Shown piece after piece: positions 39,247 through 62,164 of a stretch of DNA of 64,000 nucleotides (within the stretch, counting starts at the first letter, position 1; each line of letters opens with the position of its first letter). Under the pieces are notes generated by a model. That model was not told where the DNA came from, did not search any database, and was given only the letters and a program-made list of their open reading frames with translations. A program made the position numbers and the translations under genes. The stretch comes from an uncultured Gemmatimonadaceae bacterium (GTDB lineage Bacteria > Gemmatimonadota > Gemmatimonadetes > Gemmatimonadales > Gemmatimonadaceae): assembly GCA_963761075.1 (NCBI GenBank), contig CAVXFN010000004.1, positions 1,192,411 through 1,256,410 of the forward strand, in the 5' to 3' direction.

Positions 39247-39260
39247 CGGCGGTTCGCCGG

Positions 39261-41629: not shown

Positions 41630-41644
41630 CCTGCTTCCGCCGGA

Positions 41645-41684: not shown

Positions 41685-41703
41685 TGACGAGCGACGTCGC
41701 GCG

Positions 41704-42045: not shown

Positions 42046-42056
42046 GTCGGCTCCGG

Positions 42057-42752: not shown

Positions 42753-42801
42753 GAGCTGTGAAGAGAGGGAAGTGGGCGGCGCGGGGCGCCGGTCCCCGGA
42801 G

Positions 42802-44753: not shown

Positions 44754-44842
44754 GGGCTACAGGGAGGGGTCGGGAAGGAGAAGGAGGCGGGAACCGGGAG
44801 GCGTCCGCAACCCAGGGGCGCGGACCGCCGCACGCACCACGC

Positions 44843-46087
44843 TCATTTCAGTGATCGAAGGTAGGCCACGACATCGGCGATCTGCTGATCCGTGAGGCCA
44901 CCGGCGGTGACGCGCATCTTCAGGATCGGGTCGAACTGGTTCATGCCGAGCGTGTTCATCAGAACGCCCGGCTTCATCACCCGGGCATTCTTGATCCACA
45001 AAGCGAGATGGTGGGCGTCGTTCGGATAGATGCCGCCCGCGATCGTCAGGCGCGACGCCACGTGCGTGAGGTCGGGGCCGATGACGCCGACCGCCATCGG
45101 ATTGCCGCGGATCTTGTGGCAGCCGATGCAGACGCTGCGGCTGAAGGTCTCGAGGCCACGCTGCGGATCGCCCGCGGCCAGCAGGTTGTCATCGAACGTC
45201 ATGCCCGGGGGCACCGGCGTCTGCGGGATGACGTTGGGAGGCACCCGGTCGCGCGGGAACGAGAAGGCGTCGACCGGCGGCTGGGCCGCGGCAGGCGGCG
45301 CGGCGGCACCCGCGGGCGTCGTCTGTGCCGCCTGCTGCACCGATGCCACGCCGAAGCGGGCCGGGGCCTGCTCGTTGGCGATCCAGCGGTCGAAGTCCTC
45401 GGGCGACACCGTGAATGCCCGGAACCGCATGTTGGCGTGCGAGGTGCCGCAGTACTCGTTGCAGCTCCCGTTGAACGCCGCCTCACCGGTAGAGTCGGGC
45501 GTGAACCACAGGTGGTTCACGCGATTGCTCACCGCGTCTCGCTTGCCGCCCAGCTGCGGAATCCAGAAGGAGTGGATGACATCCGCGGAGCGCAGCGTGA
45601 ACGCCACCGGCCGCCCGGCGACGAGATAGAGCTCGTTGGCGGTGACGACGTTGTATTGCGGATAGCGGAATTCCCACCACCACTGGTGTCCGGTCACCTC
45701 GACCTGGAGGGCGTCCGCCGGTGCCGGCGCCTCGTACTTCCAGATCGCGCGCACGGTCGGCACGGCGATGAAGAACAGGATCAGGGCCGGCGCGAGTGTC
45801 CAGGTGATCTCGAGGGCGGCATTGCCGTGGATGGGCTTCGGCTCGGGGCCCCCGGGGCGACGCCGGTAGCGGACCATCGTCCAGACGAGGATGCCCTCGA
45901 CCAGGATGAAGACTCCGGTGCCCAGCACCATCATGCGATCCCAGATCGACCGCAGGTCCCGGTTGAACTCGGTGTGGTTCGTGAAGGTCGAATTCGGGTA
46001 GGAACCCGAACATGCGGCGAACAGCACCGGAACCAGGACTGCCAGAACAACGACCGCGAGATGACGCGACCGGAGGTTACGTCTCAT
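44843..46087 (-). CDS. coxB: Cytochrome c oxidase subunit II with a fused C-terminal cytochrome c domain (caa3-type).
   Basis: Lipoprotein-type signal, CuA site H…CNEYCGTSHANM, C-terminal CIGCH heme-binding motif. Confidence 0.9.
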   Translation of the reverse strand: MRRNLRSRHLAVVVLAVLVPVLFAACSGSYPNSTFTNHTEFNRDLRSIWDRMMVLGTGVFILVEGILVWTMVRYRRRPGGPEPKPIHGNAALEITWTLAPALILFFIAVPTVRAIWKYEAPAPADALQVEVTGHQWWWEFRYPQYNVVTANELYLVAGRPVAFTLRSADVIHSFWIPQLGGKRDAVSNRVNHLWFTPDSTGEAAFNGSCNEYCGTSHANMRFRAFTVSPEDFDRWIANEQAPARFGVASVQQAAQTTPAGAAAPPAAAQPPVDAFSFPRDRVPPNVIPQTPVPPGMTFDDNLLAAGDPQRGLETFSRSVCIGCHKIRGNPMAVGVIGPDLTHVASRLTIAGGIYPNDAHHLALWIKNARVMKPGVLMNTLGMNQFDPILKMRVTAGGLTDQQIADVVAYLRSLK

Positions 46088-46254
46088 TCGTTTTCCCGGG
46101 GGGGTGTCAGCTGGGGGGCGCCGACGCCAGAAAGCGTGGCGACAGACCGCGCAAAGCTAGGCCCGCCGCAAGCGGGAGGCAAGCTGATATCGCGTCAGTG
46201 TTTCTCCCTCAATACGCCCGTCCCGGAAACGACACCGACCAGATTCCTCGGAGT

Positions 46255-46635
46255 TCAGGAGGGGGGCGGATTCGTCGCGGCGTCGTGAACGCTGTGGATC
46301 TCCCGCACACGCGTGATCGTCGCCTCGATCTGCGCGCGAATCTGCCCCACGCACTCCCGCAGGGCCCGCACCCTCGCCTGTTCGCTGCCTCCCCGCGTGG
46401 TGACGAGGATCATGCTCGTCACCTGGTCCGAGATCGACGCGAACTGGAGCTTGAGCAGTCCCACCAGCGGATTGGCTGCGCGCTGGAGCTGCTGCCGGAA
46501 CTGTCCGGTGTCGGTCTGGGCGCGCGCCGCAATTGCCATGCGCTCGACGATGCCGTGGACCCGCTGCAGCTGGCTGAGCGCTTCGTCCAGGGTGGCCAGC
46601 TTGAGCTGGCCGGCGCTGTCGATGTGCGTCTTCAA
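46255..46635 (-). CDS. Hypothetical helical protein (126 aa) upstream of the cox operon.
   Basis: Clean GC3 bias; ATG start; no family recognised. Confidence 0.5.
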   Translation of the reverse strand: MKTHIDSAGQLKLATLDEALSQLQRVHGIVERMAIAARAQTDTGQFRQQLQRAANPLVGLLKLQFASISDQVTSMILVTTRGGSEQARVRALRECVGQIRAQIEATITRVREIHSVHDAATNPPPS

Positions 46636-46692
46636 TGGCGGTTCCGGGTGAGAGGCAAAAACGGGACCGCAGCCGGTGAGCCGGCTCGTCCG

Positions 46693-48546
46693 TCAGATCA
46701 TGGAAGAGGGGTTCAGCAGTTCGTCGAGGCGCTTTCGCGTCACCAGCTTCTGTTCAAGGACGAGTTCGTACACGCCCCGTCCCGTCTCCAACGCGCTCTT
46801 GGCCACCTCGGTGGCCTTGTGGTACCCGATTTCCGGCAGCAGCGCGGTCACGAGCCCGATCGAGTGCTCCACGAAATGACGCATGCGATCGGGGTTCGGC
46901 GTGATGCCGTCGACGCAGCGGGTACGCAGCACCGCACAGGCGTTCCGCAGGGCGTCGATGCTGCGCAGGAGCCGGAAGGCGATGAGGGGCTCGAACGCAT
47001 TGAGCTGCAGCTGTCCCGCCTCGGCGGCCAGCGTGACCGTCACGTCGCCGCCAATCACGTCGAAGCAGACCTGGTTCACGACCTCGGGAATGACAGGATT
47101 CACCTTGCCGGGCATGATCGACGAGCCTGGCTGCATGGCGGGGAGGTTGATCTCGCCGAGGCCGGCTCGCGGCCCGGAACTCAGCAGGCGCAGGTCGTTG
47201 CAGATCTTGGAGAGCTTGACGGCGCACCGCTTGAGCACGCCGGACAGCTGCACGAACACCCCGGTGTCCGACGTGGCTTCGATGAGGTCGGGTGATGTGA
47301 CGAGGTCGAGTCGCGTGATCTCGGAGAGGTGGCGCCGCACCAGCTCGGGGTAGCCTGCGGCGGCGGTGATCCCGGTGCCGATGGCGGTCGCTCCCATGTT
47401 GATCTCGCGCACGAGCGACAGCGCCTCCCCGAGCCTGTCGACGTCCTCCAGCAGTGTGTGCCCGAACGCCGCGAATTCCTGGCCGAGCGTCATCGGGACC
47501 GCATCCTGGAGCTGTGTGCGCCCGAGCTTGACGTGCGGGGCGAACTCATGCCCCTTCGCCACGAAGGCCTCCGCCAGCTGGCGCATCGCCCCGCGCAGGC
47601 TCTCGATCTCGCCATGCAGGCCGATGCGCACGGCTGTGGGATAGACGTCGTTGGTGGACTGGCTGAGGTTGACGTGGTTGTTGGGGTGCAGCCGCTCGTA
47701 GTTGCCGCGTGACTCCCCCAGCAGCTCGAGGGCCCGATTGGCGATGACCTCGTTGGCATTCATGTTCGTCGAGGTGCCGGCCCCGCCCTGGATCATGTCC
47801 ACGAGGAAATGTTCGTGGTGCCGTCCCTGGCGGATCTCGACGGCGGCCTTGACGATGGCGTCGCAGAGCGGTCGGTCGAGCAGCCCGAGGTCGGCGTTGG
47901 CCAGCGCGGCCGCCTGCTTCACGGCCGCGAGCGCCTCGATGAGCGCGGGAAACTCGCGCAGCACCACGCCGGTGATCGGGAAGTTCTCGAGAGCGCGGAG
48001 GGTCTGGATCCCGTAGAGCGCGTCGTCGGGCACGTCGCGTGCGCCGAGCAGGTCGGACTCCGGCCGCGTGCGGGCGCCACCGAAGCCGAGCACGCGACCG
48101 CGCCCCACAATGGTGGCGTCGGTGGCGGCGAGCCGTTGCGAGATCGCCCGCGCCGCGCGCCCGACGAGCGCCGCGTAGAGCGAGGCGAAGTCCTTCATCA
48201 TCTCTCGCACGCGCTCGCGGCTGAGGACATAGGCCTCGGTGCGCTGCACCGTACGGGCGCTGGTGCCGTGGGCGGTCTCGTCGAGGAGGATCCCTTCACC
48301 GACGGCGTCGCCGGCGCCCAGCGTGATGAGGCGTACCGGTCGTCCGTTCACGCTCTTCTCGACCACGACCGCCCCGCTCACGAGGATCGCAGCGAACTCC
48401 CGTGCTCCGCCTTCCTCGAAGAGGAGGTGGTCGCTCGCCCACTCGACGGGCGTGACCATGCGGGCGAGCTGATGGATGGCGGTGTCGGTGACACCCTGGA
48501 GGAAGCGGGTGGCGCGCAGGCGTTCGCGAATGGCGGCGGTTGTCAT
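46693..48546 (-). CDS. Aspartate ammonia-lyase (fumarate-lyase superfamily) with an N-terminal cyclic-nucleotide-binding domain.
   Basis: N-terminal ~140 aa CAP-type cNMP domain (…LITLGAGDAVGEGILLDETAHGTSARTV…). Then an aspartase core with QSTNDVYPTA and signature GSSIMPGKVNPVIPE. Confidence 0.85.
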   Translation of the reverse strand: MTTAAIRERLRATRFLQGVTDTAIHQLARMVTPVEWASDHLLFEEGGAREFAAILVSGAVVVEKSVNGRPVRLITLGAGDAVGEGILLDETAHGTSARTVQRTEAYVLSRERVREMMKDFASLYAALVGRAARAISQRLAATDATIVGRGRVLGFGGARTRPESDLLGARDVPDDALYGIQTLRALENFPITGVVLREFPALIEALAAVKQAAALANADLGLLDRPLCDAIVKAAVEIRQGRHHEHFLVDMIQGGAGTSTNMNANEVIANRALELLGESRGNYERLHPNNHVNLSQSTNDVYPTAVRIGLHGEIESLRGAMRQLAEAFVAKGHEFAPHVKLGRTQLQDAVPMTLGQEFAAFGHTLLEDVDRLGEALSLVREINMGATAIGTGITAAAGYPELVRRHLSEITRLDLVTSPDLIEATSDTGVFVQLSGVLKRCAVKLSKICNDLRLLSSGPRAGLGEINLPAMQPGSSIMPGKVNPVIPEVVNQVCFDVIGGDVTVTLAAEAGQLQLNAFEPLIAFRLLRSIDALRNACAVLRTRCVDGITPNPDRMRHFVEHSIGLVTALLPEIGYHKATEVAKSALETGRGVYELVLEQKLVTRKRLDELLNPSSMI

Positions 48547-48658
48547 GGAGTCGGCGGGGATGGATCGGCCCCGGTCCGGCCGGGCCGGGGGCTGAAAGCT
48601 AGGCGGAAAGCGATGTCGGTGGCGAGCGCGGCAGCCGGGCCGGCCGCGGGCACGGGAC

Positions 48659-50239
48659 TCAGCGCGCCGGCGTCACCAGGCGCTCGCACCATCCGAGCAG
48701 GCCATCGACGGCGAGCGCCAGCAGCGCCGCGGGAATCGCCCCGGAGAGGATCATGCGGGAGTCGGCCAGCGTGAGGCCGGCGACGATCGGGTCGCCGAGT
48801 CCCCCGGCGCCGATGAACGCCGCCAGGGTGGCGGTGCCGACGTTGATCACGCCGGCGGTGCGCACCCCGGCCATGACCGTCGGCGCGGCCAGCGGCAGGC
48901 GCACGTGACGCAGGACCTGCCAGGGCGTCATGCCTAACGCCGACGCCGCCGCCACCGCCGGCGGGTCGGCATCGCGCACGCCCGAGTAGGTGTTGCGCAG
49001 GATCGGATAGAGGGAGTACAGGAACAGCGCCACCAGCGCCGGGCGCACCCCGATGCCGAGCAGCGGGATCATGAAGGCCAGCAGCGCGATCCCCGGGAGG
49101 GTCTGCAGCACGCCTACGGCGCGAATCGTTGCCTCGGCGCCCGCGCGAAAGCGCTCCAGCGCCAGTCCGGCGGGGACGGCGACGAGGATCGCCGCCGCGA
49201 GCGACACGCTCACCAGCAGCAGGTGCCGGAGCGTCATCCTGGCAATGTCGCCGCGCCGATCGAGGAGGTAGCGCCAGAGAGGGACGCCGCTGCCGCCGGT
49301 TGCCGGCGCGCCCGACGGCGCCGCCGGAGTTCCCGCAAGTCCGAGCGAGCGCAGCAGGTCGCGGGCGACCGTCGCCACCGGGGCGCCTCCGACCTCGACC
49401 TGCTCGTTCAGGGCGCGCATCCTGGCGACGTCGAGACGGCCGCTGAGTTCCGTCAGCACGGCGACCGCGCCCGGGGTGCGCTGCTGCAGCTCGGCGCCCA
49501 CGAGCGCCGCGGCCTCGTAGGGCGGGAAGAAGTGGTGGTCGTCGGCAAGCACCGCCAGCCCGTATCGTGCGATGAGGCCGTCGGTCGAGTACCCGTCGAT
49601 CACGTCCACCTCGCCGGCGACGAGCGCGCGGTACTTCACGGCCGGCAGCAGCGACCGTACCGCAGCGAGGTGCAGGCCGTAGGCGCGTTCCAGGCCGGGC
49701 AGGCCGTCGGGGCGGCCGATGAAGTCCGGGGTGAATCCCCCGCGGAGCCGCGCGCCGGCCGCCGCCAGGTCGCCGATCGACCGCAGGCCTAACGAATCGG
49801 CCGTGGCGCGGCGGACGGCGATGGCATAGGTGTTTTCGAAGCCGAGGGGCGGGAGCCAGCGGACGCCGTAGCGCTGCCGGAAGGCCAGCGACACGCGGTC
49901 GAACACCGTGGCCGGATCCCCGACCGTGCCCGCACCGAGGATCGCGAGGAGTCCGGTGCCGGTGTACTCCGGGTAGACGTCGATGTCGCCCGAACGCAGC
50001 GCCCCGAACGCGATCTCCGTGGACCCCAACCCGGGGCGACGGTCCACCGAGTAGCCGCGCGACTCGAGCAGCTGCGCGAACAGCTCGGCCAGCAGGTACG
50101 ACTCGGCGAACGGCTTGGACGCGATGACCACCGGTCGCGTCGGCGCCTCCGTGGCTGGCGTGCGGCTGGGCGCGCCCTGGGCCAGCGCGAGCGTCGGCCC
50201 GAGCAGGGCGAGCCATGCCGCTGTCGTCAGGCGCGACAT
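48659..50239 (-). CDS. Betaine/choline-family ABC transporter, fused substrate-binding domain (N-terminal) + permease (C-terminal).
   Basis: Signal peptide; OpuAC-type SBD (…DIDVYPEYTGTGLL…) followed by 5-6 TM helices with an EAA-like loop (…LGMTPWQVLRHVRLP…). Confidence 0.85.
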   Translation of the reverse strand: MSRLTTAAWLALLGPTLALAQGAPSRTPATEAPTRPVVIASKPFAESYLLAELFAQLLESRGYSVDRRPGLGSTEIAFGALRSGDIDVYPEYTGTGLLAILGAGTVGDPATVFDRVSLAFRQRYGVRWLPPLGFENTYAIAVRRATADSLGLRSIGDLAAAGARLRGGFTPDFIGRPDGLPGLERAYGLHLAAVRSLLPAVKYRALVAGEVDVIDGYSTDGLIARYGLAVLADDHHFFPPYEAAALVGAELQQRTPGAVAVLTELSGRLDVARMRALNEQVEVGGAPVATVARDLLRSLGLAGTPAAPSGAPATGGSGVPLWRYLLDRRGDIARMTLRHLLLVSVSLAAAILVAVPAGLALERFRAGAEATIRAVGVLQTLPGIALLAFMIPLLGIGVRPALVALFLYSLYPILRNTYSGVRDADPPAVAAASALGMTPWQVLRHVRLPLAAPTVMAGVRTAGVINVGTATLAAFIGAGGLGDPIVAGLTLADSRMILSGAIPAALLALAVDGLLGWCERLVTPAR

Positions 50240-50242
50240 CGA

Positions 50243-50995
50243 TCAGGACGGTCCGGACCGGACGCCGGCGCGTCGCAGCAGCTCGACGACATACGGCGGG
50301 GCGGGTGACTCCCGCAGCGACGCCGGCGTGGCGAGCTGCTCGATCCGGCCGGCGCGCATGACGGCGATGTCGTCGGCGAGCAGCAGGGCCTCGCGGACGT
50401 CGTGCGTCACCAGCACCGCGGTTACGGCGAGGCGGCGCCGAAGGTCCGCGAACGCCTGTTGCAGCTCGGCGCGGGTGATGGCGTCGAGCGCACCAAACGG
50501 CTCATCAAGCAGGACGACGTCCGGATGCGCGGCGAGGGCGCGCGCGATGGCCGCACGCTGTCGCTGGCCCCCCGACAGCTCGCGCGGCCATCGATCGGCG
50601 AAGCGATCGGGGTCGAGTCCCACGAGCACCAGCGCCTCGCGCGCCAGCGCACCGGGGTCGGGCAGGCCGCGCAGCCACGGGACGAGGGTGACGTTTCGAA
50701 GGACCCGCCAGTGCGGAAGGAGGCCCCCGTCCTGTGGTACGTAGCCGATGCGCCGGCGCAGGGTGACGCCGTCGATCTCGCGCACGTCGCGCCCGTCGAC
50801 GAGCACCCGTCCCTCGTCGGGCGTGACGAGGCCGTTGAAGCAGCGCAGCAGGGTGGTCTTGCCGGAGCCGCTCTCGCCGATCAGTGCCAGACAGTGGCCG
50901 CGCGCCACGGCCAGGGAGACTCCGTCGACCGCGGTCGTCGCCGTAAAGCGCCGGGAGACCGCCTCGACGCGCAGGGCGACGTCGGGCTCGCTCAC
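50243..50995 (-). CDS. ABC transporter ATP-binding protein (OpuCA/ProV-like, no CBS tail).
   Basis: Walker A GESGSGKTT, signature LSGGQRQR, Walker B VVLLDEP, H-loop VTHD. GTG at 50995 overlaps the egtA stop (GTGA). Confidence 0.8.
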   Translation of the reverse strand: MSEPDVALRVEAVSRRFTATTAVDGVSLAVARGHCLALIGESGSGKTTLLRCFNGLVTPDEGRVLVDGRDVREIDGVTLRRRIGYVPQDGGLLPHWRVLRNVTLVPWLRGLPDPGALAREALVLVGLDPDRFADRWPRELSGGQRQRAAIARALAAHPDVVLLDEPFGALDAITRAELQQAFADLRRRLAVTAVLVTHDVREALLLADDIAVMRAGRIEQLATPASLRESPAPPYVVELLRRAGVRSGPS

Positions 50996-52242
50996 CCCGG
51001 GATGGCGACGGGAGCGTCGGCGGCGGGCGACCGCCCACGGCGCGTGTAGCGCTCGAAGAACTCCCACGCGACGGCGAGCGATGGCTCGTCGATCACGGAA
51101 CGCCCCGCCGACTCGCCGGCGCGCAAGGCAAGCCCATAGAGCTCGGCGGCGCGGCGGGCGATCGCCGGGTCGGCGAGCCCGCACCGACCGGCACGCTCCA
51201 GCAGGTCCGCATCGGGCGCCCCGGTGATCTCTCCCGCGGCGCCGGCCGCGGCCGGCGCACCGATGATCCCGGCCAGGAACGCCAGCGGCGCCGCGTACCA
51301 GGCGGGTGCCAGCGCGTCGGTCGAGCGGACCTCGAAATAGCCGCGCGGCCGCACCTCCGGAAAGAGGGTCGAGAGGTGCGACTCCCAGTCCACCGCGCCG
51401 ACTCGTCCGTCGGCGAGGAGCGTGCCGAACGGCGCGAACGGGGGCGACTCGCCATCGTGCAGCACGTCCGGCGCGCCGAGCGCGAAGTCGGCGTAGGCGC
51501 CCACGGGATCGGTCGCGTCCCACGCGAGACCGGTGCGCCGCGGATCGAGGGCGCCCCAGACGAAGCGGCGCAGGCTCTGGTGCCCGGAAAGCTCACCGGC
51601 ATATCGCGGCGAGTTGGCGAAGATCGCCACCAGGTACGGCGCCAGCGCGTTCAGCAGCGTCCATCGCTCGAGCGGACGGGGACCGGCATCGAGACAGACC
51701 TGGATCGAGGCGGTTTGCCGCATCATCCGTGCGCCGTGCGGACCGATGGTCGCGAAATGCGCGTCCATGCGGCGGTACCGCTCCCCGGTCAGCTGCAGTG
51801 GCACGTCGTCGATGGGGTTGAGCGGGTCGATGCCCGCCGCCACCAGCGCGATGCCGGCGTCGTTGAGTGGTGCGTCGATGGCGCCGACGGTCTCGTGCAG
51901 GTCCGCAACGAGGGCACCGACGGACGTGCGTGGTGGTGCAGCGTACTCCACCTGGCCGCCGGGCTCGAAGGTGAGCCGTCCCCCGGTGGGCGTGATGAAT
52001 TCCGGCACGCCCGCCTTGGCGGAGCGCTGCTCGGTCCATCGGGCCTCACGCGCGACTTCGCGGAATACCGGGAGGGTCGACGGGCGGTCGGCGACGTCGA
52101 TGGGGGCGGGGCGCCCCGTCGCGCGCTCGAGTGCGAGGAACTCCACTTCGGCGCCGATGCGGGACCCGAGGTCAGGGGCCGACGGCGCGAATGCGACGCG
52201 GGCCAGGTGTTCGCGGAGACGGTCCGTGTCGCGCGAGATCAT
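50992..52242 (-). CDS. egtA: Glutamate--cysteine ligase family 2 protein (EgtA-like gamma-glutamylcysteine synthetase).
   Basis: GCS2 hallmark RIGAEVEF and overall carboxylate-amine ligase architecture. ATGA overlap with egtD. Confidence 0.65.
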   Translation of the reverse strand: MISRDTDRLREHLARVAFAPSAPDLGSRIGAEVEFLALERATGRPAPIDVADRPSTLPVFREVAREARWTEQRSAKAGVPEFITPTGGRLTFEPGGQVEYAAPPRTSVGALVADLHETVGAIDAPLNDAGIALVAAGIDPLNPIDDVPLQLTGERYRRMDAHFATIGPHGARMMRQTASIQVCLDAGPRPLERWTLLNALAPYLVAIFANSPRYAGELSGHQSLRRFVWGALDPRRTGLAWDATDPVGAYADFALGAPDVLHDGESPPFAPFGTLLADGRVGAVDWESHLSTLFPEVRPRGYFEVRSTDALAPAWYAAPLAFLAGIIGAPAAAGAAGEITGAPDADLLERAGRCGLADPAIARRAAELYGLALRAGESAGRSVIDEPSLAVAWEFFERYTRRGRSPAADAPVAIPG

Positions 52243-53216
52243 GCGACGGTGTCTCCGGCCGGGGCGGCCACCAGCAGCGCGTACTGGTCGTGCGGATCGA
52301 CGCGCCACGCCTGGGCGACGAGCCCGGCCGCGGAGAGCATGCGTTCCATCTGCGGGCGGTCGTACTTGCAGCAGATCTCGGTGCGGATCGTCTCGCCGTC
52401 CCGCATCACGACAGCGCCGATGTCTGGTACGGACACCCGCTGGGCCCCGCGCGAGGCCAGGTGCATCTCGATGCGGTGATGGGCCCACGACCAGCGCGCC
52501 CGGTGCTCGAATCGCGCGAGGTCGAAGCCCGCGCCCAGCTCCCTGTTCAGCACCCGGAGCATGTTGAGGTTGAAGTCGGCAGTGACCCCGGCGGCGTCGT
52601 TGTACGCACGCTCGATTCGCGACACCGGCTTGGTGCGCAGGTCGGCGCCGAGCAGCAGCCTGTCGATGGGGCGCATGGCGTCGCATACCGATCGCAGGAT
52701 GGCGGTGGCGTCGTCCTCGCGGAAATTGCCGATGGTGCTGCCGAGGAAGGCGAAGACCGCCGGTCCGTCGGCGGGAAGCGTGACGTCAATGCGCTCGGTG
52801 AAGTCGCCGATGACCGGCTCCACGGCGAGCCAGGGGAGGTCGGCGCGCAGCCGCGCCGCGCTCTGGTCGAGGAATTCCGCGCTGACGTCGATCGGCAGGT
52901 AGCGATGGCCGCTGCCGGCCGCGCGCATTGCGCGGAGGATGATCCGGGTCTTCTCCCCGCTGCCGGCGCCCAGCTCGACGAGCGACGTCGGGGCGAGTTC
53001 GCGCAGGAGCGACGGCATCCAGGCGCGGAGGGTGCGGCGCTCGGCGCGGGTGAGGTAGTACTCGGGGAGCCGGGTGATGGCCTCGAAGAGCAGCGACCCG
53101 CGGTGGTCGTAGAAGTACTTCGAGGGCAGCTCCTTCTGCGGGCGCGACAGTCCCCAGCGCACGTCGCGCAGCATCGCGTTCTGGCGCGGCAGGGCGAGCG
53201 GGCTGGTGCTAGTCAT
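52239..53216 (-). CDS. egtD: L-histidine N-alpha-methyltransferase (hercynine synthase).
   Basis: EgtD-family N-terminus KYFYDHRGSLLFEAITRLPEYYLTRAE and SAM-binding LVELGAGSGEKT. It starts 2 nt after the egtB stop. Confidence 0.8.
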   Translation of the reverse strand: MTSTSPLALPRQNAMLRDVRWGLSRPQKELPSKYFYDHRGSLLFEAITRLPEYYLTRAERRTLRAWMPSLLRELAPTSLVELGAGSGEKTRIILRAMRAAGSGHRYLPIDVSAEFLDQSAARLRADLPWLAVEPVIGDFTERIDVTLPADGPAVFAFLGSTIGNFREDDATAILRSVCDAMRPIDRLLLGADLRTKPVSRIERAYNDAAGVTADFNLNMLRVLNRELGAGFDLARFEHRARWSWAHHRIEMHLASRGAQRVSVPDIGAVVMRDGETIRTEICCKYDRPQMERMLSAAGLVAQAWRVDPHDQYALLVAAPAGDTVA

Positions 53217-54525
53217 CGCGGGCGCAGCGGAAGCCGCTGAAGATCTGGCGGCGGATTGGGTAGTCCCAGTTGCGGAACGTGTTCCGGATGGCGCCGGGCC
53301 TGGTGGCCCACGAGCCGCCGCGGAGCACCTTGTACTCACCGCCATGGAAGACGGATGAGTACTCGTCGTACGGAAACGCCTCGAACCCCGGATAGGGCAG
53401 AAAGTCGCTGGCCGTCCACTCCCACAGGTCCCCGATCATGCCGTAGCAGCCTAACGCGGAGACGTTTTCCGGGTAGGCGCCGACGGGGGCGGTGTCGAAC
53501 GCCAGCTGGTCGATGTTGGCGCGGTCCGGCGTGGCCGGCGGTTCGCCCCACGGATAGGCGCGCGCCGTCCCGCTGGCGGGGTCCCAGGACGCGGCCGCTT
53601 CCCACTCCGCCTCGGTGGGGAGTCGCTTGCCGGCCCAGGCCGCCCAGGCGCTCGCCTCATGGAAGCAGACATGACCGACGGGGCGCTCCGGGTCGACCGG
53701 GCGGACCCGGTCCATCACGCGCTGCCGCCACTCGTTGCCGTCGCGCACCCAGTACTGCGGCGCCACGGCCCCCGATTCCCGGCGCCAGCGCCACCCCGCT
53801 TCTGTCCACAGTTCGGCGCGCTCGTAGCCGCCGTCCTCCATGAACGCGAGGTACCCGGCGTTGCGCACGGGCGCGACGTCGATCCAGAACGGCGGGAGCG
53901 TGCGCCGGTGGCGGGGGCGCTCGTTGTCGTAGGCGGCGCGCCTGTCGGTGGTGCCGATCGTGACCTCGCCGCCGGGGAAGCGGACCATTGCACCGGCGTC
54001 GACGTGGAGCGCCGGGGCGGGCAGGGCGCGACGGCCCGGCGGGGCATACGGGGCCCCGCGCTTGAGTTGCAGCGTCTGCAAGATCGTCTCGTCGTGCTGG
54101 TACTCGTGTTGCAGCACCATCTCGACGACGTACCCGTCGCGGACGAGCGGATTTGGATCCGACAGGTCGAGTCCCTCCACGCGCTGCATGACGCGGCCGC
54201 GGATCTCCTGCATGCGGGCCAGGCATTCCTCGCGCGTCGGGTAGACCAGCTCGCCGCGCACGCGACGCGGATTCTCGAATGGATTGTAGGTCCCCGGCAT
54301 CTCGACGAACCGGATTTCGCCGTCGAGGTTGTGGGTGAGCCAGAGTTCCTCAAAGTGGGCGATGTGACCGAGGTCCCAGAGGATCGGGCTCATGAGCGGG
54401 TCGTGTTGCAACCGCAGGTCCGCGTCGGAGACCGGCGCGACGAGCTGGAGCGTGCGCTCGCGCGCCTCGGTGAGGCGTGCGAGCAGCGATTCGAGGTCCG
54501 GGCGCACGGGCACGGAGGTCGTCAT
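53209..54525 (-). CDS. egtB: Ergothioneine biosynthesis sulfoxide synthase EgtB (DinB_2 + FGE-sulfatase domains).
   Basis: DinB-like N-domain with His-rich iron site (HIAHFEELW…HEYQHDE); C-terminal FGE-type domain (GDLWEWTAS…RGGSWA). Confidence 0.85.
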   Translation of the reverse strand: MTTSVPVRPDLESLLARLTEARERTLQLVAPVSDADLRLQHDPLMSPILWDLGHIAHFEELWLTHNLDGEIRFVEMPGTYNPFENPRRVRGELVYPTREECLARMQEIRGRVMQRVEGLDLSDPNPLVRDGYVVEMVLQHEYQHDETILQTLQLKRGAPYAPPGRRALPAPALHVDAGAMVRFPGGEVTIGTTDRRAAYDNERPRHRRTLPPFWIDVAPVRNAGYLAFMEDGGYERAELWTEAGWRWRRESGAVAPQYWVRDGNEWRQRVMDRVRPVDPERPVGHVCFHEASAWAAWAGKRLPTEAEWEAAASWDPASGTARAYPWGEPPATPDRANIDQLAFDTAPVGAYPENVSALGCYGMIGDLWEWTASDFLPYPGFEAFPYDEYSSVFHGGEYKVLRGGSWATRPGAIRNTFRNWDYPIRRQIFSGFRCARDD

Positions 54526-54741
54526 GGCGTGATCGGCTCGGGGTGCTCGCGGAGGCGTGAGCAGCTACAATGGTCACCGTGGGCGGTGCGCGCCAGTCGC
54601 GACGAGGCACGCTCCCGCCGGTGACGCGTACAACCCGCCGGTCCGGCAATCGGTTCCTCGTGGTGGGGAACCGCCGCCGGCATGCCGAGGTTGATGCCGG
54701 ATGCAGGCACTCGAGGACGCCTTGACACAAACCCCGGAGGC

Positions 54742-55614
54742 ATGATGGCGGCGACAGCGGGTGGCACGGCGGCGTGGCAGCACCTGACCTCGCCCCCGGC
54801 CGGAGTCCTGTCGGACGCGCGGCTGCAGTTGCACCATGCGGTGCAGTTGATCGTCTCGGCGCCCATCTCGTACCTGCCGGCGCGGGCGGACGACAGTCAC
54901 ACCAACCTCGAGTGGCGCCCGGCGAGCGGTGCGCTGGTGACCAACCCGCTGACGAGCGGCGGGTTGCGCTTCGGGCTCCGGCCGCGCGACCTCTGCCTGC
55001 TGGCGACCGGCGTCGACGATGTGGCGCGCCCGGTCTTTGCCCTGGACGGCCACACGGCCGCAGATGCGCTGGCGTGGATGCGCGGCGTGCTCTCGGGCGA
55101 CGGGCTGGATGCCGCGCGCCTAACGACGGAGAAGCACTACGAGATTCCGCCGCACGCCGTGTCCACCGGTCGGGCGTATGCCCTGGACCGCGAGGGGGCG
55201 TTCGAGACGCTCGCGAGCGCCTATCAGGACGCCTGGCTGGTGACCTCGGAGGTGGTGGCGCGCGACGCCGAGGCGTCACCGCCGCGCTGCTGGCCGCATC
55301 ACTTCGACCTGGCCACGCTGATCACCCTCGCCCCCTCCGCGGACGGCTCGCCGCGCACGATCGGCGTCGGCATGTCACCCGGCGACGACTCGTATCCGGA
55401 GCCGTACTTCTACGTCGGCCCCTATCCGTATCCGTCCGCCGACGCGCTGCCGCGCCTCGGTGCCGGCCACTGGCACACGAAGGGCTGGATCGGCGCGGTG
55501 CTGACGCTGGGCGATCTGGTGGTCCACGACGATGCGGCCGGCCAGGCGGCGCTCGCCACCGCGTTCGTCGAGGCAACGGTGGCGGCATGCCGGCAGGTGC
55601 TCGGCGTGCGCTGA
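54742..55614 (+). CDS. Hypothetical protein (291 aa), divergent from egtB.
   Basis: GGAGG 1 nt before the ATG at 54742; GC3 bias; no family recognised. Confidence 0.45.
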   Translation: MMAATAGGTAAWQHLTSPPAGVLSDARLQLHHAVQLIVSAPISYLPARADDSHTNLEWRPASGALVTNPLTSGGLRFGLRPRDLCLLATGVDDVARPVFALDGHTAADALAWMRGVLSGDGLDAARLTTEKHYEIPPHAVSTGRAYALDREGAFETLASAYQDAWLVTSEVVARDAEASPPRCWPHHFDLATLITLAPSADGSPRTIGVGMSPGDDSYPEPYFYVGPYPYPSADALPRLGAGHWHTKGWIGAVLTLGDLVVHDDAAGQAALATAFVEATVAACRQVLGVR

Positions 55615-55617
55615 GGG

Positions 55618-56724
55618 CTACGGGACGTCCTCCAGCGCGAGCTGGTGCGCCTTGCGACCGCCGCGCGCCACGGTGTGGCGCGCCTCGTCGTGCCCGAGCA
55701 GCAGGTCGGCCATGTCGACGGCGCGCGCCACCAGCATGCGGGCCCCGTCGCGCAGCTCGTCGCTCTTCATCACGTAGTCGATGTTGTGCTCCATGTCCTC
55801 GGCCGACCAGCCGCGCGAATGGGCGATGAACGGGAACTGCGGAAAATGGCAGCCGATCTCGGAAAAGAACCCGAGCATCTGGCCGGCCACCGCCTGCACG
55901 TTGTCCTGCCCCCCAGTGATGATGAACGCCGCGACCTTGTTTCGCACCAGCACGCGGTTGGCGATCGTCACCTGGTTCTGCACGCAGTTCATGCGCTCCA
56001 CCATCTTGTAGTAGAGCGCGCTGGCGTTCCCCCAGCGGATCGGCGTGGCGACGAGCAGCACGTCCGCCCAGTGGATGACGGTCTCGTACACCTGGGCCAT
56101 CTGGTCGGCGGGATCCATCTCGGTGATGGAGCACGGCCAGGTGCAGGCGTGCGCACTCTTGGAGTAGTAGCCCTCGCACTGGCGGAAGGCGAGCGCCGCC
56201 AGGCGCTCGAGCCGGGTCTCGGCACCGAGATCCCGCTGCGCGTGGTCGAGGGCGATGTCGAGCAGCGCATCGGACGTCGAGTAGCGCGGGTTGGCCAGGT
56301 CCATGTTCGTCGTCGAGATCCCGGCCACGCGGATGGGGCCCGGGACACGGACCACCGGACGCGCCACGGGATGGGGCTGGTGGGGGAGGTGGGTGCGCTT
56401 CGTGCCCGAGGCCATGTCGACGAGCAGGCGGCCGTCCTCCACCTTCACCCGGTACGCCGGCGCGGCGTCGCCCTCGAAGCCCGGCTCGCCGAGGCCCGTG
56501 GTCCGATGGTACTTCCAGTTGTGCCACGGGCAGGTCACGTAGTCGCCCCCGAGTCGCCCGCTGCCTAACGGCCCGCCCTTGTGGTTGCAGAGCCCCGAGA
56601 TCGCACCGAACTCCCCCCCGGCGAACGTGACGGCCAGGCGCACGCGGCCGACCAGCGCGGGGGTGATCGGCTGCCTCCGGAAGTCCTCGGCGGGGCCGAG
56701 GTCGTGCCAATCGGGTGCGGGCAT
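55618..56724 (-). CDS. Rieske [2Fe-2S] domain fused to an NAD(P)H-dependent FMN reductase (flavodoxin-like) domain.
   Basis: N-terminal CNHKGGPL…CPWHNWKY (CxH…CxxH Rieske). C-terminal flavodoxin-like/FMN_red fold (…LLVATPIRWGNASALYYKMVERM…IITGGQD…). Confidence 0.7.
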   Translation of the reverse strand: MPAPDWHDLGPAEDFRRQPITPALVGRVRLAVTFAGGEFGAISGLCNHKGGPLGSGRLGGDYVTCPWHNWKYHRTTGLGEPGFEGDAAPAYRVKVEDGRLLVDMASGTKRTHLPHQPHPVARPVVRVPGPIRVAGISTTNMDLANPRYSTSDALLDIALDHAQRDLGAETRLERLAALAFRQCEGYYSKSAHACTWPCSITEMDPADQMAQVYETVIHWADVLLVATPIRWGNASALYYKMVERMNCVQNQVTIANRVLVRNKVAAFIITGGQDNVQAVAGQMLGFFSEIGCHFPQFPFIAHSRGWSAEDMEHNIDYVMKSDELRDGARMLVARAVDMADLLLGHDEARHTVARGGRKAHQLALEDVP

Positions 56725-56930
56725 GTCGGGACTCGCGGGTATCGGGTGGTGGAATAGTCTGCACCGGCCGGTGGGCCGGAGACAAATCGGGCGACGGCCG
56801 GAACGGTTCGGGGCGCGCCGCCCGAGGGGTCCGGAGACCTAACGACGTGGCCCCTGGGGGGGCGGGCTGGCGGGCCCCGTCGCCGCGGTGCACCTTGGGA
56901 TGACCCTTCCCCCCACCCGAGGATCGCTCC

Positions 56931-57350
56931 ATGCCGCACGCGCTGATGTACCACGGTGGCTTCGAGACGAACTTCTCCCGCCTCGCGTCGGGCGCCCGGA
57001 CGTTCCTGGGATCCGATGGCAGGGAGCACCCGCTGCCGGACTGGCCCGACGAGGCCGACGGGCTGCGGATCGGCTACATGGAGAAGCCTGGAAAGAAGTT
57101 CGTCGCGGTACGCGTCATGGACGACACCGACGACATCGTGCTGGAGCACGAGCTCTTGCTCGATCCGCCCAGCCACATGGGCTACGGCCATCGGTTTTCC
57201 CCCGAGCCGACCGTGATCCAGGACGAGGTGGCGAAGCGGTTGCTCGACGACATCATCGCCAAGAACGAGGCGCAGTCGGTGGACCTTCTGACGATCCGGT
57301 CCAGGATGCCGTGGGGGCGTGGTGCCGGGAGGTCGGAACCGGATCGATGA
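56931..57350 (+). CDS. Hypothetical protein (139 aa).
   Basis: Clean coding bias; ATGA overlap with the downstream isomerase gene. Confidence 0.45.
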   Translation: MPHALMYHGGFETNFSRLASGARTFLGSDGREHPLPDWPDEADGLRIGYMEKPGKKFVAVRVMDDTDDIVLEHELLLDPPSHMGYGHRFSPEPTVIQDEVAKRLLDDIIAKNEAQSVDLLTIRSRMPWGRGAGRSEPDR

Positions 57351-58228: not shown

Positions 58229-58296
58229 CCGCGCCGGCGTGCCCCCGCCCCGCCGGCCTGTCCGTGCGGACCTGACGATGCGACGGCCGCGCGTGC

Positions 58297-59076: not shown

Positions 59077-59099
59077 CGTGGGTGGCGACGGAAGTCGGG

Positions 59100-59486: not shown

Positions 59487-59716
59487 GACCGGACGTCGCA
59501 GGAGATGGCCGGTGACCCGGGCCACGCCGCAGGGTCACGAGAGGGCGCAATCTTAGCACGTGACGCGCCGGTGTGCACGCTACGGGACGGGGCGCGGCAT
59601 ACATTGACGGAGGGGCGCGCAGAACGGATCCTTCCGACGCTGGCCGCACCGGAGACCCCAGCCGCCGGCGGCAGTGGCTGGGCAGGGCCGGTGCGCACGG
59701 CCATTGTCCCCGACCC

Positions 59717-62164
<2,448 letters not shown>

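What the first reader, a model, noticed from the sequence alone, without database searches (positions are those of the whole stretch)
48659..54525. Ergothioneine genes egtB-egtD-egtA translationally fused to a betaine-family ABC transporter
Five co-directional genes run egtB, egtD, egtA, an OpuCA-like ATPase, and a fused OpuAC-type binding domain plus permease. They are separated by a 2-nt gap, ATGA, GTGA and 3 nt, which implies a single translationally coupled operon. Ergothioneine ABC importers of this fused betaine-family type (EgtUV) have so far been described only as stand-alone uptake systems. Here the transporter is hard-wired to the biosynthetic core, with the binding domain N-terminal to the permease (reverse of EgtU). 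No egtC (amidohydrolase) or egtE (C-S lyase) lies in the window, although the EgtA/EgtB route formally needs both. Possible roles are hercynine or histidine-betaine salvage, ergothioneine export or re-uptake, or another trimethylammonium compound feeding the pathway.
Basis: partly seen in the sequence, partly recalled or inferred. Interest (0 to 1): 0.7.

Follow-up and report, generated by a model that had tools for sequence, protein, structure and literature searches.

The report
Ergothioneine genes joined to betaine importer
A soil bacterium of the phylum Gemmatimonadota carries one operon that joins three genes for making the antioxidant ergothioneine to a betaine-type ABC uptake pump; relatives keep the two together in six gene orders, so producers of ergothioneine probably also take up it or its precursor hercynine.

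Summary
On the minus strand, egtB (54525..53209), egtD (53216..52239), an EgtA-like ligase (52242..50992), a 250-aa ABC ATPase without CBS domains (50995..50243) and a fused binding-domain/permease protein (50239..48659) form a tightly packed operon. One detail is wrong: the egtB/egtD junction is an 8-nt overlap (ATGACTAG), not a 2-nt gap.

The window comes from a Gemmatimonadota genome. In 25 of 37 related loci with full 8-kb flanks, egt genes lie within 8 kb of the orthologous transporter, in six arrangements. The link also holds for transporters only about 50% identical.

Some relatives add an EgtC-like gene, a Ser/Thr-dehydratase-like PLP enzyme, a TonB-dependent receptor and an FAD disulfide reductase.

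EgtB is the γ-glutamylcysteine-dependent type I, which fits the co-encoded EgtA. No egtC or egtE was found in the window.

The binding domain scores equally against ergothioneine-binding EgtUC and glycine-betaine-binding AfProX. Its pocket is AfProX-like at the three positions that define Firmicute EgtU, and shares a proline with the lower-affinity H. pylori EgtU. The ligand is therefore unresolved.

Best reading: an importer of ergothioneine and/or hercynine, co-expressed with synthesis. The N-terminal binding domain is common in this family. I found no paper describing this linkage.

The parts
53209..54525 (-). egtB: type I hercynine/γ-glutamylcysteine sulfoxide synthase, 438 aa
   Evidence: TIGR03440 scores 411.6 bits, above the cutoff of 360; Pfam finds DinB_2 plus FGE-sulfatase. 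The closest solved structure is M. thermoresistibile EgtB 4X8B (1.7e-104), against 1e-50 for the type II enzyme 6QKI. The alignment keeps H51/H134/H138, Y377, Y380, R87, R90, W415, D416 and R420 (residue list from PMC4768315).
52239..53216 (-). egtD: L-histidine Nα-methyltransferase (makes hercynine), 325 aa; its start overlaps the egtB stop by 8 nt (ATGACTAG)
   Evidence: TIGR03438 scores 325.8 bits, above the cutoff of 290.9; Pfam Methyltransf_33 matches at 1e-99. Junction read. An independent gene call for the same genome gives the same 325-aa product.
50992..52242 (-). egtA-like glutamate-cysteine ligase, 416 aa; ATGA overlap with egtD
   Evidence: The best NCBIfam hit is EgtA TIGR03444 at 228.3 bits, below the cutoff of 370.8. 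Plant-type GCL scores 101.7 bits and YbdK 27 bits; Pfam GCS2 matches at 5e-38. It is syntenic with egtB/egtD in at least 15 related loci. In L083 it is called as one product with EgtD.
50243..50995 (-). ABC transporter ATPase, 250 aa, no CBS domains; GTG start in a GTGA overlap with egtA
   Evidence: Pfam finds ABC_tran only. The proV-subfamily model aligns over positions 5-232 of 363, so the C-terminal CBS region is absent. Walker A (GESGSGKT), the LSGGQ signature and Walker B (VVLLDE) are intact. It sits next to the SBD-TMD gene in every related locus where the upstream sequence is present.
48659..50239 (-). Fused protein, 526 aa: signal peptide, OpuAC-type substrate-binding domain (about residues 32-302), linker, then BPD_transp_1 permease (about 335-526)
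   Evidence: Pfam OpuAC matches at 7.5e-61 (residues 36-297) and BPD_transp_1 at 2.6e-21 (355-521). The closest solved structures are SpEgtUC (1.5e-50) and AfProX (6.3e-49). The pocket is K42-P43-F44, S73-T74, Y92, T95, F134, N136, Y138, D172, R176, Y217, Y241. An importer-type EAA coupling motif lies at residues 430-449, and hydrophobic peaks are confined to residues 340-515.
54526..54744 (.). Divergent intergenic region between egtB and the DUF5996 gene; presumed promoter/regulatory region of the operon (inferred)
   Evidence: No σ70-like promoter, intrinsic terminator or Rfam family was detected here or inside the operon. The role is inferred from gene layout only.
54745..55614 (+). DUF5996-family gene, 289 aa, divergent from egtB; candidate associated gene of unknown function
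   Evidence: Homologues carry PF19459. The gene is divergently paired with egtB in the closest relatives. The same pairing holds in relatives at 46-50% identity that lack the transporter at this locus. The AlphaFold2 model has pLDDT 94 but no convincing match to a solved structure. The association rests on synteny only.

Best explanation
This is a single operon of a Gemmatimonadota bacterium. It co-expresses the first steps of ergothioneine synthesis with a binding-protein-dependent ABC importer.

Synthesis steps:
- EgtD methylates histidine to hercynine.
- The EgtA-like ligase makes γ-glutamylcysteine.
- Type I EgtB joins the two with O2.

Transporter: two copies of the fused binding-domain/permease protein and two copies of the small ATPase.

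Most likely function: the pump carries a histidine betaine from the periplasm into the cell. The substrate would be ergothioneine itself and/or hercynine, which is both its precursor and its oxidation product. The cell can then make the antioxidant or take it up under one control. Hercynine taken up could go straight to EgtB, saving three S-adenosylmethionine per molecule.

Shown here: gene identities, operon packing, importer architecture, and conserved linkage to egt genes.

Inferred: the direction of transport, the ligand, and co-regulation.

The later steps (removal of glutamate, C-S lyase) are not encoded in the window and must lie elsewhere in the genome.
For: 1. Gene identities and tight packing are established.

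2. Linkage is conserved.
- The ATPase and SBD-TMD genes are always paired.
- In 25 of 37 loci with full flanks, egt genes lie within 8 kb.
- Six arrangements occur: egtBDA then transporter; divergent; transporter then egtBDA; egt genes 6-8 kb downstream; egtD alone, divergent; and convergent.
- The linked arrangements are scattered across the transporter tree.
- The two most divergent K-P-F transporters (49-53% identity to the window protein) sit beside egtD. In L086 a distant EgtB (35% identity) follows egtD; in L087 the contig ends just past egtD.

3. The architecture is that of an importer.
- It has a periplasmic binding domain behind a signal peptide, a BPD_transp_1 permease with an EAA coupling motif, and intact ATPase motifs.
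- In seven relatives a TonB-dependent outer-membrane receptor, a class of protein that only imports, lies in the same neighbourhood.

4. The ATPase has no CBS domains. In OpuA these domains carry c-di-AMP control and form part of the ionic-strength gate (PMC7673798). Their absence argues against a classic osmoregulated betaine pump.

5. The binding domain resembles ergothioneine binders.
- Ergothioneine-binding EgtUC is its top-scoring solved relative (1.5e-50).
- Its D2 lobe is closer to EgtUC (7e-28) than to AfProX (1e-22).
- The carboxylate clamp (K42, T95, R176), the acidic residue D172 and T74 are kept.
- P43 matches P296 of H. pylori EgtU, which contacts the thione sulfur. That protein binds ergothioneine at Ka 5e5 per M (PMC12922746).

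6. In five loci an FAD disulfide reductase with a CVNYGC motif sits directly upstream of the ATPase on the same strand. This fits a thiol-related cargo.

7. EgtB has the full γ-glutamylcysteine site, which fits the co-encoded EgtA. Comparative genomics places Gemmatimonadetes among bacillithiol producers (PMC6282198). My inference is that they may lack a housekeeping γ-glutamylcysteine supply and so need a dedicated ligase.
Against: - The pocket is AfProX-like, not SpEgtU-like, at the three positions published as ergothioneine determinants. It has F44 where SpEgtU has G244, Y92 for F293 and F134 for Y337 (PMC9732360).
- In SpEgtUC, the G244F, F293Y and I243P substitutions lower ergothioneine affinity about 100-, 10- and 1000-fold (PMC9732360, PMC12922746).
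- The same AfProX-type signature is the rule among the 150 nearest representatives. The pocket could therefore simply bind glycine betaine or proline betaine.
- Twelve of 37 full-flank loci have no egt gene within 8 kb. There the transporter lies beside serine-synthesis and end-joining DNA-repair genes.
- The pocket is the same in linked and unlinked loci.
- There is no binding, transport or expression data.
- SpEgtUC binds hercynine about 10,000-fold more weakly than ergothioneine (PMC9732360, PMC12922746), so no hercynine-binding relative is known.
Confidence: 0.55

Rival explanations
1. The pump is a general osmoprotectant importer of the AfProX/OpuF type, taking up glycine betaine, proline betaine and similar solutes. 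It sits next to the egt genes only because both belong to a common stress regulon, or because ergothioneine is itself a betaine. It would not carry histidine betaines to any useful extent.
For: - The pocket carries the AfProX features given in PMC9732360: a four-tyrosine cage (Y92, Y138, Y217, Y241), and phenylalanines at the positions of the AfProX Phe that replaces G244 and of AfProX F107.
- The lysine, threonine and arginine that clamp the ligand carboxylate are also present; I did not see their AfProX counterparts in an alignment.
- The overall score against AfProX (6.3e-49) equals that against EgtUC.
- The AfProX-type signature dominates the nearest 150 representatives.
- One third of orthologous loci are not linked to egt genes.
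- Source databases name these proteins osmoprotectant or glycine-betaine transporters.
Against: - Proximity to egt genes is kept through six different rearrangements, and down to about 50% transporter identity. A loose regulon link does not predict that.
- The ATPase lacks CBS domains. My reading is that these are typical of osmoregulated betaine pumps; the role is documented for OpuA (PMC7673798).
- TonB-dependent receptors and a disulfide reductase recur beside the pump. My reading is that an abundant small osmolyte would not need them.
- H. pylori EgtU shows that a transporter lacking the SpEgtU determinants can still carry ergothioneine (PMC9732360, PMC12922746).
Confidence: 0.27
2. The pump exports newly made ergothioneine (or hercynine) out of the cell. 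This would fill the long-sought role of a bacterial ergothioneine exporter.
For: - The pump is co-transcribed with biosynthetic genes, the usual place for product exporters.
- No ergothioneine exporter has been identified in any organism (PMC12689799).
Against: - The architecture is that of a type I ABC importer: an extracytoplasmic binding domain, a BPD_transp_1 permease with an EAA motif, and no exporter-type transmembrane domain.
- All characterised relatives (EgtU, AfProX, OpuF, OpuA) are importers (PMC9732360, PMC7673798).
- The recurrent neighbour is a TonB-dependent receptor, which only imports.
Confidence: 0.04
3. The adjacency is inherited gene order within one phylum and has no functional meaning.
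For: - 79 of the 80 loci kept by the genome scan carry a Gemmatimonadota lineage name in their record titles (L015 is named Longimicrobium sp.), so the counts are not independent.
- Some clades have lost the linkage.
- egtBDA clusters also occur without the transporter.
Against: - The flanking genes differ completely between arrangements, while the egt-transporter adjacency persists.
- Strand orientation and gene order have changed at least five times.
- The adjacency recurs in a convergent form in very divergent loci, where EgtD is 43% and EgtB 35% identical to the window proteins.
- Four junctions with overlapping or near-overlapping stop and start codons indicate co-translation in this genome.
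Confidence: 0.05

Closest known systems
EgtUV / EgtU ergothioneine ABC importer (S. pneumoniae SPD_1642-1643; L. monocytogenes BilEB; H. pylori EgtUV)
   Same: - It is a two-gene system: a small ATPase plus one protein that fuses a subcluster F-III betaine-type binding domain to the permease.
- EgtUC is the top-scoring solved relative (1.5e-50).
- The carboxylate clamp K/T/R, the acidic residue before the Arg, T275, N339 and three cage tyrosines are kept.
- The proline after the Lys matches H. pylori P296 (PMC12922746).
   Different: - The domain order is reversed (binding domain N-terminal).
- F, Y and F replace G244, F293 and Y337.
- It is encoded with biosynthetic genes. The EgtU hosts characterised in the papers I read (S. 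pneumoniae, Firmicute pathogens) are discussed as bacteria that take up rather than make ergothioneine (PMC9732360).
- It occurs in a diderm soil phylum, not Firmicutes or Campylobacterota.
- Ligand binding is untested.
Archaeoglobus fulgidus ProX (AfProX), glycine betaine / proline betaine binding protein
   Same: The overall score is the same as for EgtUC (6.3e-49). It has the same four-tyrosine cage, and phenylalanines at the positions of SpEgtU G244 and Y337 (PMC9732360). PMC9732360 reports an analogous Glu in AfProX at the SpEgtU E375 position, where this protein has Asp.
   Different: - AfProX is a free binding protein; here the domain is fused to the permease.
- The D2 lobe is less similar to AfProX (1e-22) than to EgtUC (7e-28).
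- Here the gene lies among ergothioneine genes.
- I could not display a residue-by-residue alignment with AfProX.
Actinobacterial egtABCDE cluster (M. smegmatis / M. tuberculosis)
   Same: It uses the same chemistry. EgtD, a γ-glutamylcysteine-dependent type I EgtB (closest structure 4X8B, with all thiol-site residues kept) and a dedicated EgtA ligase lie in one cluster.
   Different: - The gene order is B-D-A.
- There is no egtC or egtE in the cluster or the window.
- EgtA is divergent (228 bits against a cutoff of 371).
- A transporter is built into the operon.
- Some relatives pair an EgtC-like gene with a Ser/Thr-dehydratase-like PLP enzyme instead of EgtE.
OpuF (Bacillus) and OpuA (L. lactis) betaine ABC importers with binding domain fused to the permease
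   Same: Each has a fused binding-domain/permease protein plus one ATPase. Both belong to the betaine family, and OpuF falls in the same sequence cluster as EgtU (PMC9732360).
   Different: - In EgtU and OpuA the binding domain follows the permease: EgtUBC has an N-terminal permease and C-terminal binding domain (PMC12922746), and in the OpuA chain 7ahc the permease match lies at residues 98-271 of 585.
- The OpuA ATPase carries CBS domains for ionic-strength and c-di-AMP control (PMC7673798), which are absent here.
- As far as I know, neither is encoded with a biosynthetic pathway.

Membership tests
EgtB, type I (TIGR03440) | Score at or above the curated equivalog cutoff | tested here: met
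   411.6 bits against a cutoff of 360.
EgtB, type I (TIGR03440) | Three-His iron site (H51, H134, H138) and catalytic Y377 | tested here: met
   All four are conserved in the alignment to 4X8B (residue list from PMC4768315).
EgtB, type I (TIGR03440) | γ-Glutamylcysteine/hercynine site: R87, R90, Y380, W415, D416, R420 | tested here: met
   All six are conserved. 4X8B scores 1.7e-104, against 1e-50 for the type II enzyme 6QKI.
SenA selenoneine synthase (NF041186) | Score at or above the cutoff, with R87 and D416 replaced by His and Phe/Tyr | tested here: not met
   353.4 bits against a cutoff of 420. R87 and D416 are retained (criterion from bioRxiv 10.1101/2022.04.13.486033).
EgtD (TIGR03438) | Score at or above the curated equivalog cutoff | tested here: met
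   325.8 bits against a cutoff of 290.9; Pfam Methyltransf_33 matches at 1e-99.
EgtA (TIGR03444) | Score at or above the curated equivalog cutoff | tested here: not met
   228.3 bits against a cutoff of 370.8. It is still the best-scoring ligase model; plant-type GCL scores 101.7 bits and YbdK 27 bits.
EgtA (TIGR03444) | Encoded with egtB and egtD | tested here: met
   It is adjacent to egtD in the window and in at least 15 related loci. It is called as one EgtD-EgtA product in L083.
EgtU ergothioneine importer | Subcluster F-III binding domain with aromatic cage, plus carboxylate clamp K242/T296/R379 | tested here: met
   K42, T95, R176; cage Y92, Y138, Y217, Y241 with N136. These residues are invariant or nearly so in relatives.
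EgtU ergothioneine importer | Invariant G244, which makes room for the water network around the thioimidazole | tested here: not met
   F44 aligns with G244, as in AfProX (PMC9732360). It is invariant in 81 orthologues.
EgtU ergothioneine importer | F293/Y337 'Y-to-F switch' | tested here: not met
   Y92 and F134, which is the AfProX state (PMC9732360).
EgtU ergothioneine importer | CH-S donor at position 243 (Ile in S. pneumoniae, Pro in H. pylori) and an acidic residue at position 375 | tested here: inconclusive
   P43 matches H. pylori P296, and D172 replaces E375 (PMC12922746). AfProX also has an analogous Glu (PMC9732360), so the acidic residue does not discriminate.
EgtU ergothioneine importer | Permease N-terminal, binding domain C-terminal | tested here: not met
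   OpuAC lies at residues 36-297 and the permease at 355-521.
EgtU ergothioneine importer | Binds and transports ergothioneine with selectivity over hercynine and glycine betaine | not testable with these tools
   This needs ITC or uptake assays.
AfProX-type glycine betaine / proline betaine binding protein | Four-Tyr cage, with Phe at the positions of SpEgtU G244 and Y337 | tested here: met
   read against the AfProX description in PMC9732360. No direct residue alignment with AfProX could be displayed.
AfProX-type glycine betaine / proline betaine binding protein | Binds glycine betaine or proline betaine | not testable with these tools
   This needs binding assays.
Osmoregulated OpuA/OpuC/ProU-type betaine pump | ATPase with C-terminal tandem CBS domains | tested here: not met
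   The ATPase is 250 aa with ABC_tran only; the proV model is covered over positions 5-232 of 363. The CBS role is described in PMC7673798.
Type I ABC importer | Extracytoplasmic binding domain, BPD_transp_1 permease with EAA coupling motif, ATPase with Walker A, LSGGQ and Walker B | tested here: met
   The EAA motif is AAASALGMTPWQVLRHVRLP at residues 430-449.

The most novel reading that the evidence does not exclude
The pump is the inner-membrane part of a dedicated salvage-and-recycling route for spent ergothioneine.

- In relatives the route would also include a TonB-dependent outer-membrane receptor and an FAD disulfide reductase.
- The cell would take up hercynine or oxidised ergothioneine from the environment.
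- EgtB would add the sulfur back, or the reductase would reduce the oxidised form, which avoids three methylations per molecule.

If so, this would be the first transporter tuned to hercynine or oxidised ergothioneine, and the first closed redox-recycling loop for this antioxidant in bacteria. The K-P-F pocket would be a second, independently evolved way of recognising histidine betaines.
Probability: 0.2. Interest if true: 0.8.

Novelty: new variant of a known kind. Interest (0 to 1): 0.55.

Why it matters
**What would change.** In the papers I read (PMC9732360, PMC12922746), bacterial ergothioneine uptake through EgtU is studied in bacteria described as unable to make the compound, and the biosynthesis literature deals with separate organisms. 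A conserved operon joining the two would mean that producers also scavenge the compound or its precursor.

**New candidates it offers**
- A protein for testing how histidine betaines can be recognised without the Firmicute EgtU determinants.
- Gemmatimonadota, abundant in soil, as likely ergothioneine producers. I found no paper reporting this.
- Replacements for the missing EgtC and EgtE steps.
- A possible ergothioneine-linked disulfide reductase.

**Practical side.** Ergothioneine fermentation is limited by poorly known transport. A 2025 paper states that no exporter is known in any organism (PMC12689799).

Tried and rejected
1. **Window class-V aminotransferase (15527..16660) as EgtE.** Rejected. 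It lies next to SerA (PGDH, 568 bits), resembles PhnW/SerC, and scores 25 bits on the EgtE model against a cutoff of 400.

2. **Window disulfide oxidoreductase (16782..18191) as the counterpart of the transporter-linked reductase.** Rejected. It is dihydrolipoyl dehydrogenase (552 bits, above its cutoff), lies one small gene downstream of SucB, and is 34% identical to the linked reductase.

3. **Asparaginase_2 Ntn-hydrolase next to the DUF5996 gene in L084 as an EgtC substitute.** Rejected. Its N-terminus (MSVSRRDFLATGATA...) looks like a Tat-type export signal, so it is probably periplasmic. It is absent from the window and present in only one of the scanned loci.

4. **EgtC in the window.** None was found by tblastn with three Gemmatimonadota EgtC-like proteins.

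5. **Riboswitch or other known RNA in or upstream of the operon.** No Rfam match at E up to 1.

6. **σ70 promoters and intrinsic terminators across 48300..54900.** None was found. This says little in a 70% GC genome.

8. **Residue-level alignment with AfProX and H. pylori EgtUC.** This could not be obtained, because the six S. pneumoniae EgtUC variant sequences filled the five displayed alignments in the D2-lobe search made for this purpose, and four of the five in the earlier full-domain search. AfProX and H. pylori residues are taken from PMC9732360 and PMC12922746.

9. **Reversed domain order as a novelty.** Rejected. N-terminal binding-domain fusions are common among the nearest relatives.

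10. **Selenoneine synthase reading of EgtB.** Rejected.

11. **Coverage of the window.** Twenty-five of the roughly 40 other window genes were scanned against Pfam or NCBIfam. The rest were covered only by tblastn with EgtC-like, dehydratase, reductase and receptor queries.

Full report
**1. What is in the sequence**

The window is about 70% G+C. On the minus strand, five ORFs run head to tail:

| Coordinates | Length |
|---|---|
| 54525..53209 | 438 aa |
| 53216..52239 | 325 aa |
| 52242..50992 | 416 aa |
| 50995..50243 | 250 aa |
| 50239..48659 | 526 aa |

Curated models give the following:
- **EgtB:** TIGR03440, 411.6 bits (cutoff 360).
- **EgtD:** TIGR03438, 325.8 bits (cutoff 290.9).
- **EgtA-like ligase:** the best hit is EgtA TIGR03444 at 228.3 bits, below its cutoff of 370.8. 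The YbdK model scores only 27 bits.
- **ABC ATPase:** it contains nothing but the ABC_tran domain.
- **Fused protein:** an OpuAC binding domain (residues 36-297) followed by a BPD_transp_1 permease (355-521).

The junctions are ATGACTAG (an 8-nt overlap), ATGA, GTGA and TGAtcgATG. An independent gene caller on the same genome gives the same products for four of the five genes. In that assembly egtB is truncated by an indel.

The ATPase has intact Walker A, LSGGQ and Walker B motifs. The permease has an importer-type EAA coupling motif at residues 430-449. The N-terminus looks like a signal peptide.

**2. Source and neighbours**

The exact transporter protein is encoded on a 5.47-Mb contig of an ENA metagenome assembly. 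Its close homologues are named Gemmatimonadaceae, Gemmatimonadales or Longimicrobiales.

- **Downstream** lie a fusion of a cNMP-binding domain with class II fumarase, then cytochrome oxidase genes.
- **Upstream and divergent** lie a DUF5996-family gene, then a Rieske/FMN-reductase gene.
- No Rfam family, σ70-like promoter or intrinsic terminator was detected in or around the operon.

**3. The biosynthetic half**

EgtB is far closer to the γ-glutamylcysteine-dependent M. thermoresistibile enzyme (4X8B, 1.7e-104) than to the cysteine-dependent type II enzyme (6QKI, 1e-50).

It keeps the iron ligands, the catalytic Tyr377, and Arg87, Arg90, Tyr380, Trp415, Asp416 and Arg420 (residue lists from PMC4768315 and bioRxiv 10.1101/2022.04.13.486033). 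The SenA model falls below its cutoff, and the Arg87/Asp416 pair is retained. Selenoneine synthesis is therefore excluded.

A type I EgtB fits the co-encoded EgtA-like ligase. Comparative genomics places Gemmatimonadetes among bacillithiol producers (PMC6282198). I infer that a dedicated γ-glutamylcysteine source is needed there, as in mycothiol-using actinobacteria.

The route then formally needs EgtC and EgtE. Neither was found in the window:
- tblastn with Gemmatimonadota EgtC-like proteins finds nothing.
- The only class-V aminotransferase found is SerC/PhnW-like and sits next to SerA.
- Coverage is incomplete: about 16 window genes were not scanned against the family libraries.

**4. Is the linkage conserved?**

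A scan of one genome per species found at least 540 relatives of the transporter. Of the best 80, 79 carry a Gemmatimonadota lineage name in their record titles; L015 is named Longimicrobium sp..

The ATPase and SBD-TMD genes are always adjacent. Among 37 loci with 8 kb of flank on both sides, 25 have at least one egt gene within 8 kb and 12 have none.

Six arrangements occur:

| Arrangement | Example loci |
|---|---|
| egtB-egtD-egtA then transporter, as in the window | L003-5, L009, L040, L058, L061, L073 |
| egt genes divergent from the transporter | L031, L038, L052, L078, L079 with egtA; L046, L057, L066, L068, L072 with egtB-egtD only |
| Transporter then egtB-egtD-egtA | L039, L080; L048 (no egtD hit) |
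| egt genes 6-8 kb downstream | seven loci |
| egtD alone, divergent | seven loci |
| Convergent | L086, L087 |

- These arrangements are scattered over the transporter tree.
- The convergent pair is the strongest test. Those transporters are only 49-53% identical to the window protein. Their EgtD is 43-44% identical, and the EgtB of L086 35%. L087 ends just past egtD, so its egtB is unseen. The genes are still adjacent.
- egtBDA clusters also exist without the transporter, for example directly followed by the same fumarase gene (L083). The transporter pair therefore behaves as a module that has repeatedly been placed next to egt genes.
- In about 17 unlinked loci the pump lies between end-joining DNA-repair genes and a DUF1015-SerA-SerC-like cluster.

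**5. Extra partners in relatives**

Around the egt genes of Longimicrobiales-type loci there are four recurrent genes:
- An EgtC-like gene. EgtC is its only NCBIfam hit, at 186-191 bits against a cutoff of 219.
- A short Ser/Thr-dehydratase-like PLP enzyme immediately upstream of it. This is a plausible non-orthologous C-S lyase, which is my inference.
- A TonB-dependent receptor, in seven loci.
- An FAD pyridine-nucleotide disulfide oxidoreductase of the PRK06370 type with a CVNYGC motif. In five loci it sits directly upstream of the ATPase on the same strand.

A TonB-dependent receptor only imports, so its presence supports uptake. A disulfide reductase in the transporter operon fits a thiol-related cargo.

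**6. The binding pocket**

Against solved structures the binding domain scores alike for ergothioneine-binding SpEgtUC (1.5e-50) and glycine-betaine-binding AfProX (6.3e-49). OpuCC scores far lower, about 1e-35. The D2 lobe alone is closer to EgtUC (7e-28) than to AfProX (1e-22).

Mapped on SpEgtUC (residue roles from PMC9732360 and PMC12922746):

| SpEgtUC residue | Role | Window protein |
|---|---|---|
| K242, T296, R379 | carboxylate clamp | K42, T95, R176 (kept) |
| T275 | contact with imidazole N | T74 (kept) |
| N339, Y341, Y419, Y443 | cage | N136, Y138, Y217, Y241 (kept) |
| E375 | H-bond to imidazole | D172 |
| G244 | room for water network | F44 (AfProX state) |
| F293 | cage | Y92 (AfProX state) |
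| Y337 | partner of the Y-to-F switch | F134 (AfProX state) |
| I243 | CH-S donor | P43 (as H. pylori P296) |

- In SpEgtUC, G244F, F293Y and I243P cost about 100-, 10- and 1000-fold in ergothioneine affinity.
- H. pylori EgtUC has Pro at this position and still binds ergothioneine at Ka 5e5 per M.
- PMC9732360 notes that transporters lacking the SpEgtU determinants can still take up ergothioneine.
- The K-P-F ... D ... R signature is essentially invariant in 81 orthologues, whether or not they are linked to egt genes.
- Among the 150 nearest representatives, the AfProX-type F/Y/F state is the rule and the SpEgtU state is absent.

Sequence alone therefore cannot decide between ergothioneine, hercynine and simple betaines.

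**7. Domain order and the ATPase**

Among the nearest representatives, N-terminal binding-domain fusions (32) outnumber C-terminal ones (13). Free and multi-domain forms also occur. The reversed order relative to EgtU is real but ordinary.

The ATPase lacks the CBS domains. In OpuA these carry c-di-AMP control and form part of the ionic-strength gate (PMC7673798). Their absence argues against a classic osmoregulated pump.

**8. Interpretation**

The operon is real and the linkage is functional, with high confidence.

The pump is an importer, also with high confidence. This rests on its architecture and the TonB-receptor context.

The cargo is most likely a histidine betaine, ergothioneine and/or hercynine. 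I put this at about 0.55. The main rival, at about 0.27, is a general betaine pump co-located with a stress pathway. Export and meaningless synteny are unlikely.

**9. Novelty**

Searches of the held literature found no paper describing an EgtU-like or betaine ABC transporter encoded with egt genes, and none reporting ergothioneine genes in Gemmatimonadota. The H. pylori paper in Cell is not held and could not be checked.

All the protein families are known. What is new is the conserved operonic coupling, the distinct K-P-F pocket, and the phylum. I rate it a new variant of a known kind, of moderate interest, with clear and cheap experiments that would settle the ligand.

Noticed in passing
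[not shown]
   Followed up: partly
L068 2963-4683; L038 1647-3396; L072 2813-4574; L057 1622-3382; L082 4174-5924: In related egt neighbourhoods, a short Ser/Thr-dehydratase-like PLP enzyme (about 324 aa, no equivalog cutoff reached) sits immediately upstream of an EgtC-like gene. It could be a non-orthologous replacement for the C-S lyase EgtE.
   Followed up: partly
L069 5796-7166; L028 5775-7142; L057 5871-7235; L087 1425-2804; L086 3-1088: An FAD pyridine-nucleotide disulfide oxidoreductase (PRK06370 type, CVNYGC motif) lies directly upstream of the transporter ATPase on the same strand in five loci. Two of these are very divergent. It may reduce oxidised ergothioneine.
   Followed up: partly
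L054 3145-5868; L060 2789-5551; L068 28-2727; L014, L031, L072, L078: A TonB-dependent receptor with an N-terminal CarboxypepD_reg domain recurs next to egtD or the EgtC/dehydratase pair in seven related loci. This hints at an outer-membrane uptake step for the same cargo.
   Followed up: partly
L083 3965-6355: EgtD and the EgtA-like ligase are called as a single 796-aa product (Methyltransf_33 plus GCS2). This is either a true fusion or a lost stop at the ATGA junction. Either way it supports the EgtA assignment.
   Followed up: no
window 46693..48546 (-): A class II fumarase carries an N-terminal cyclic-nucleotide-binding domain (617 aa). It is conserved downstream of the operon in several relatives, and directly after egtA in L083.
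   Followed up: no
window 33776..34730 (+): A homologue (about 46% identity) of the cluster-associated Ser/Thr dehydratase lies 14 kb from the operon. It is split over two reading frames near 34150-34190, probably an assembly indel.
   Followed up: partly
window 38688..60240 compared with L001: The window and the ENA copy of the same region are 99.4% identical, with 97 mismatches and 10 gaps in 21.5 kb. Different genes look frameshifted in each: COX1 (43692..44753) in the window and egtB in L001. Small indels in this genome should be read as assembly noise.
   Followed up: partly
window 55618..56724 (-): A fusion of a Rieske [2Fe-2S] domain with an NADPH-dependent FMN reductase domain (368 aa) is conserved next to the DUF5996 gene in the closest relatives and in L083.
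   Followed up: no
L007 6925-10576 and about 16 other loci: In loci not linked to egt genes, the transporter is followed by DUF1015, SerA and a SerC-like aminotransferase, and preceded by Ku and LigD end-joining DNA-repair genes.
   Followed up: no
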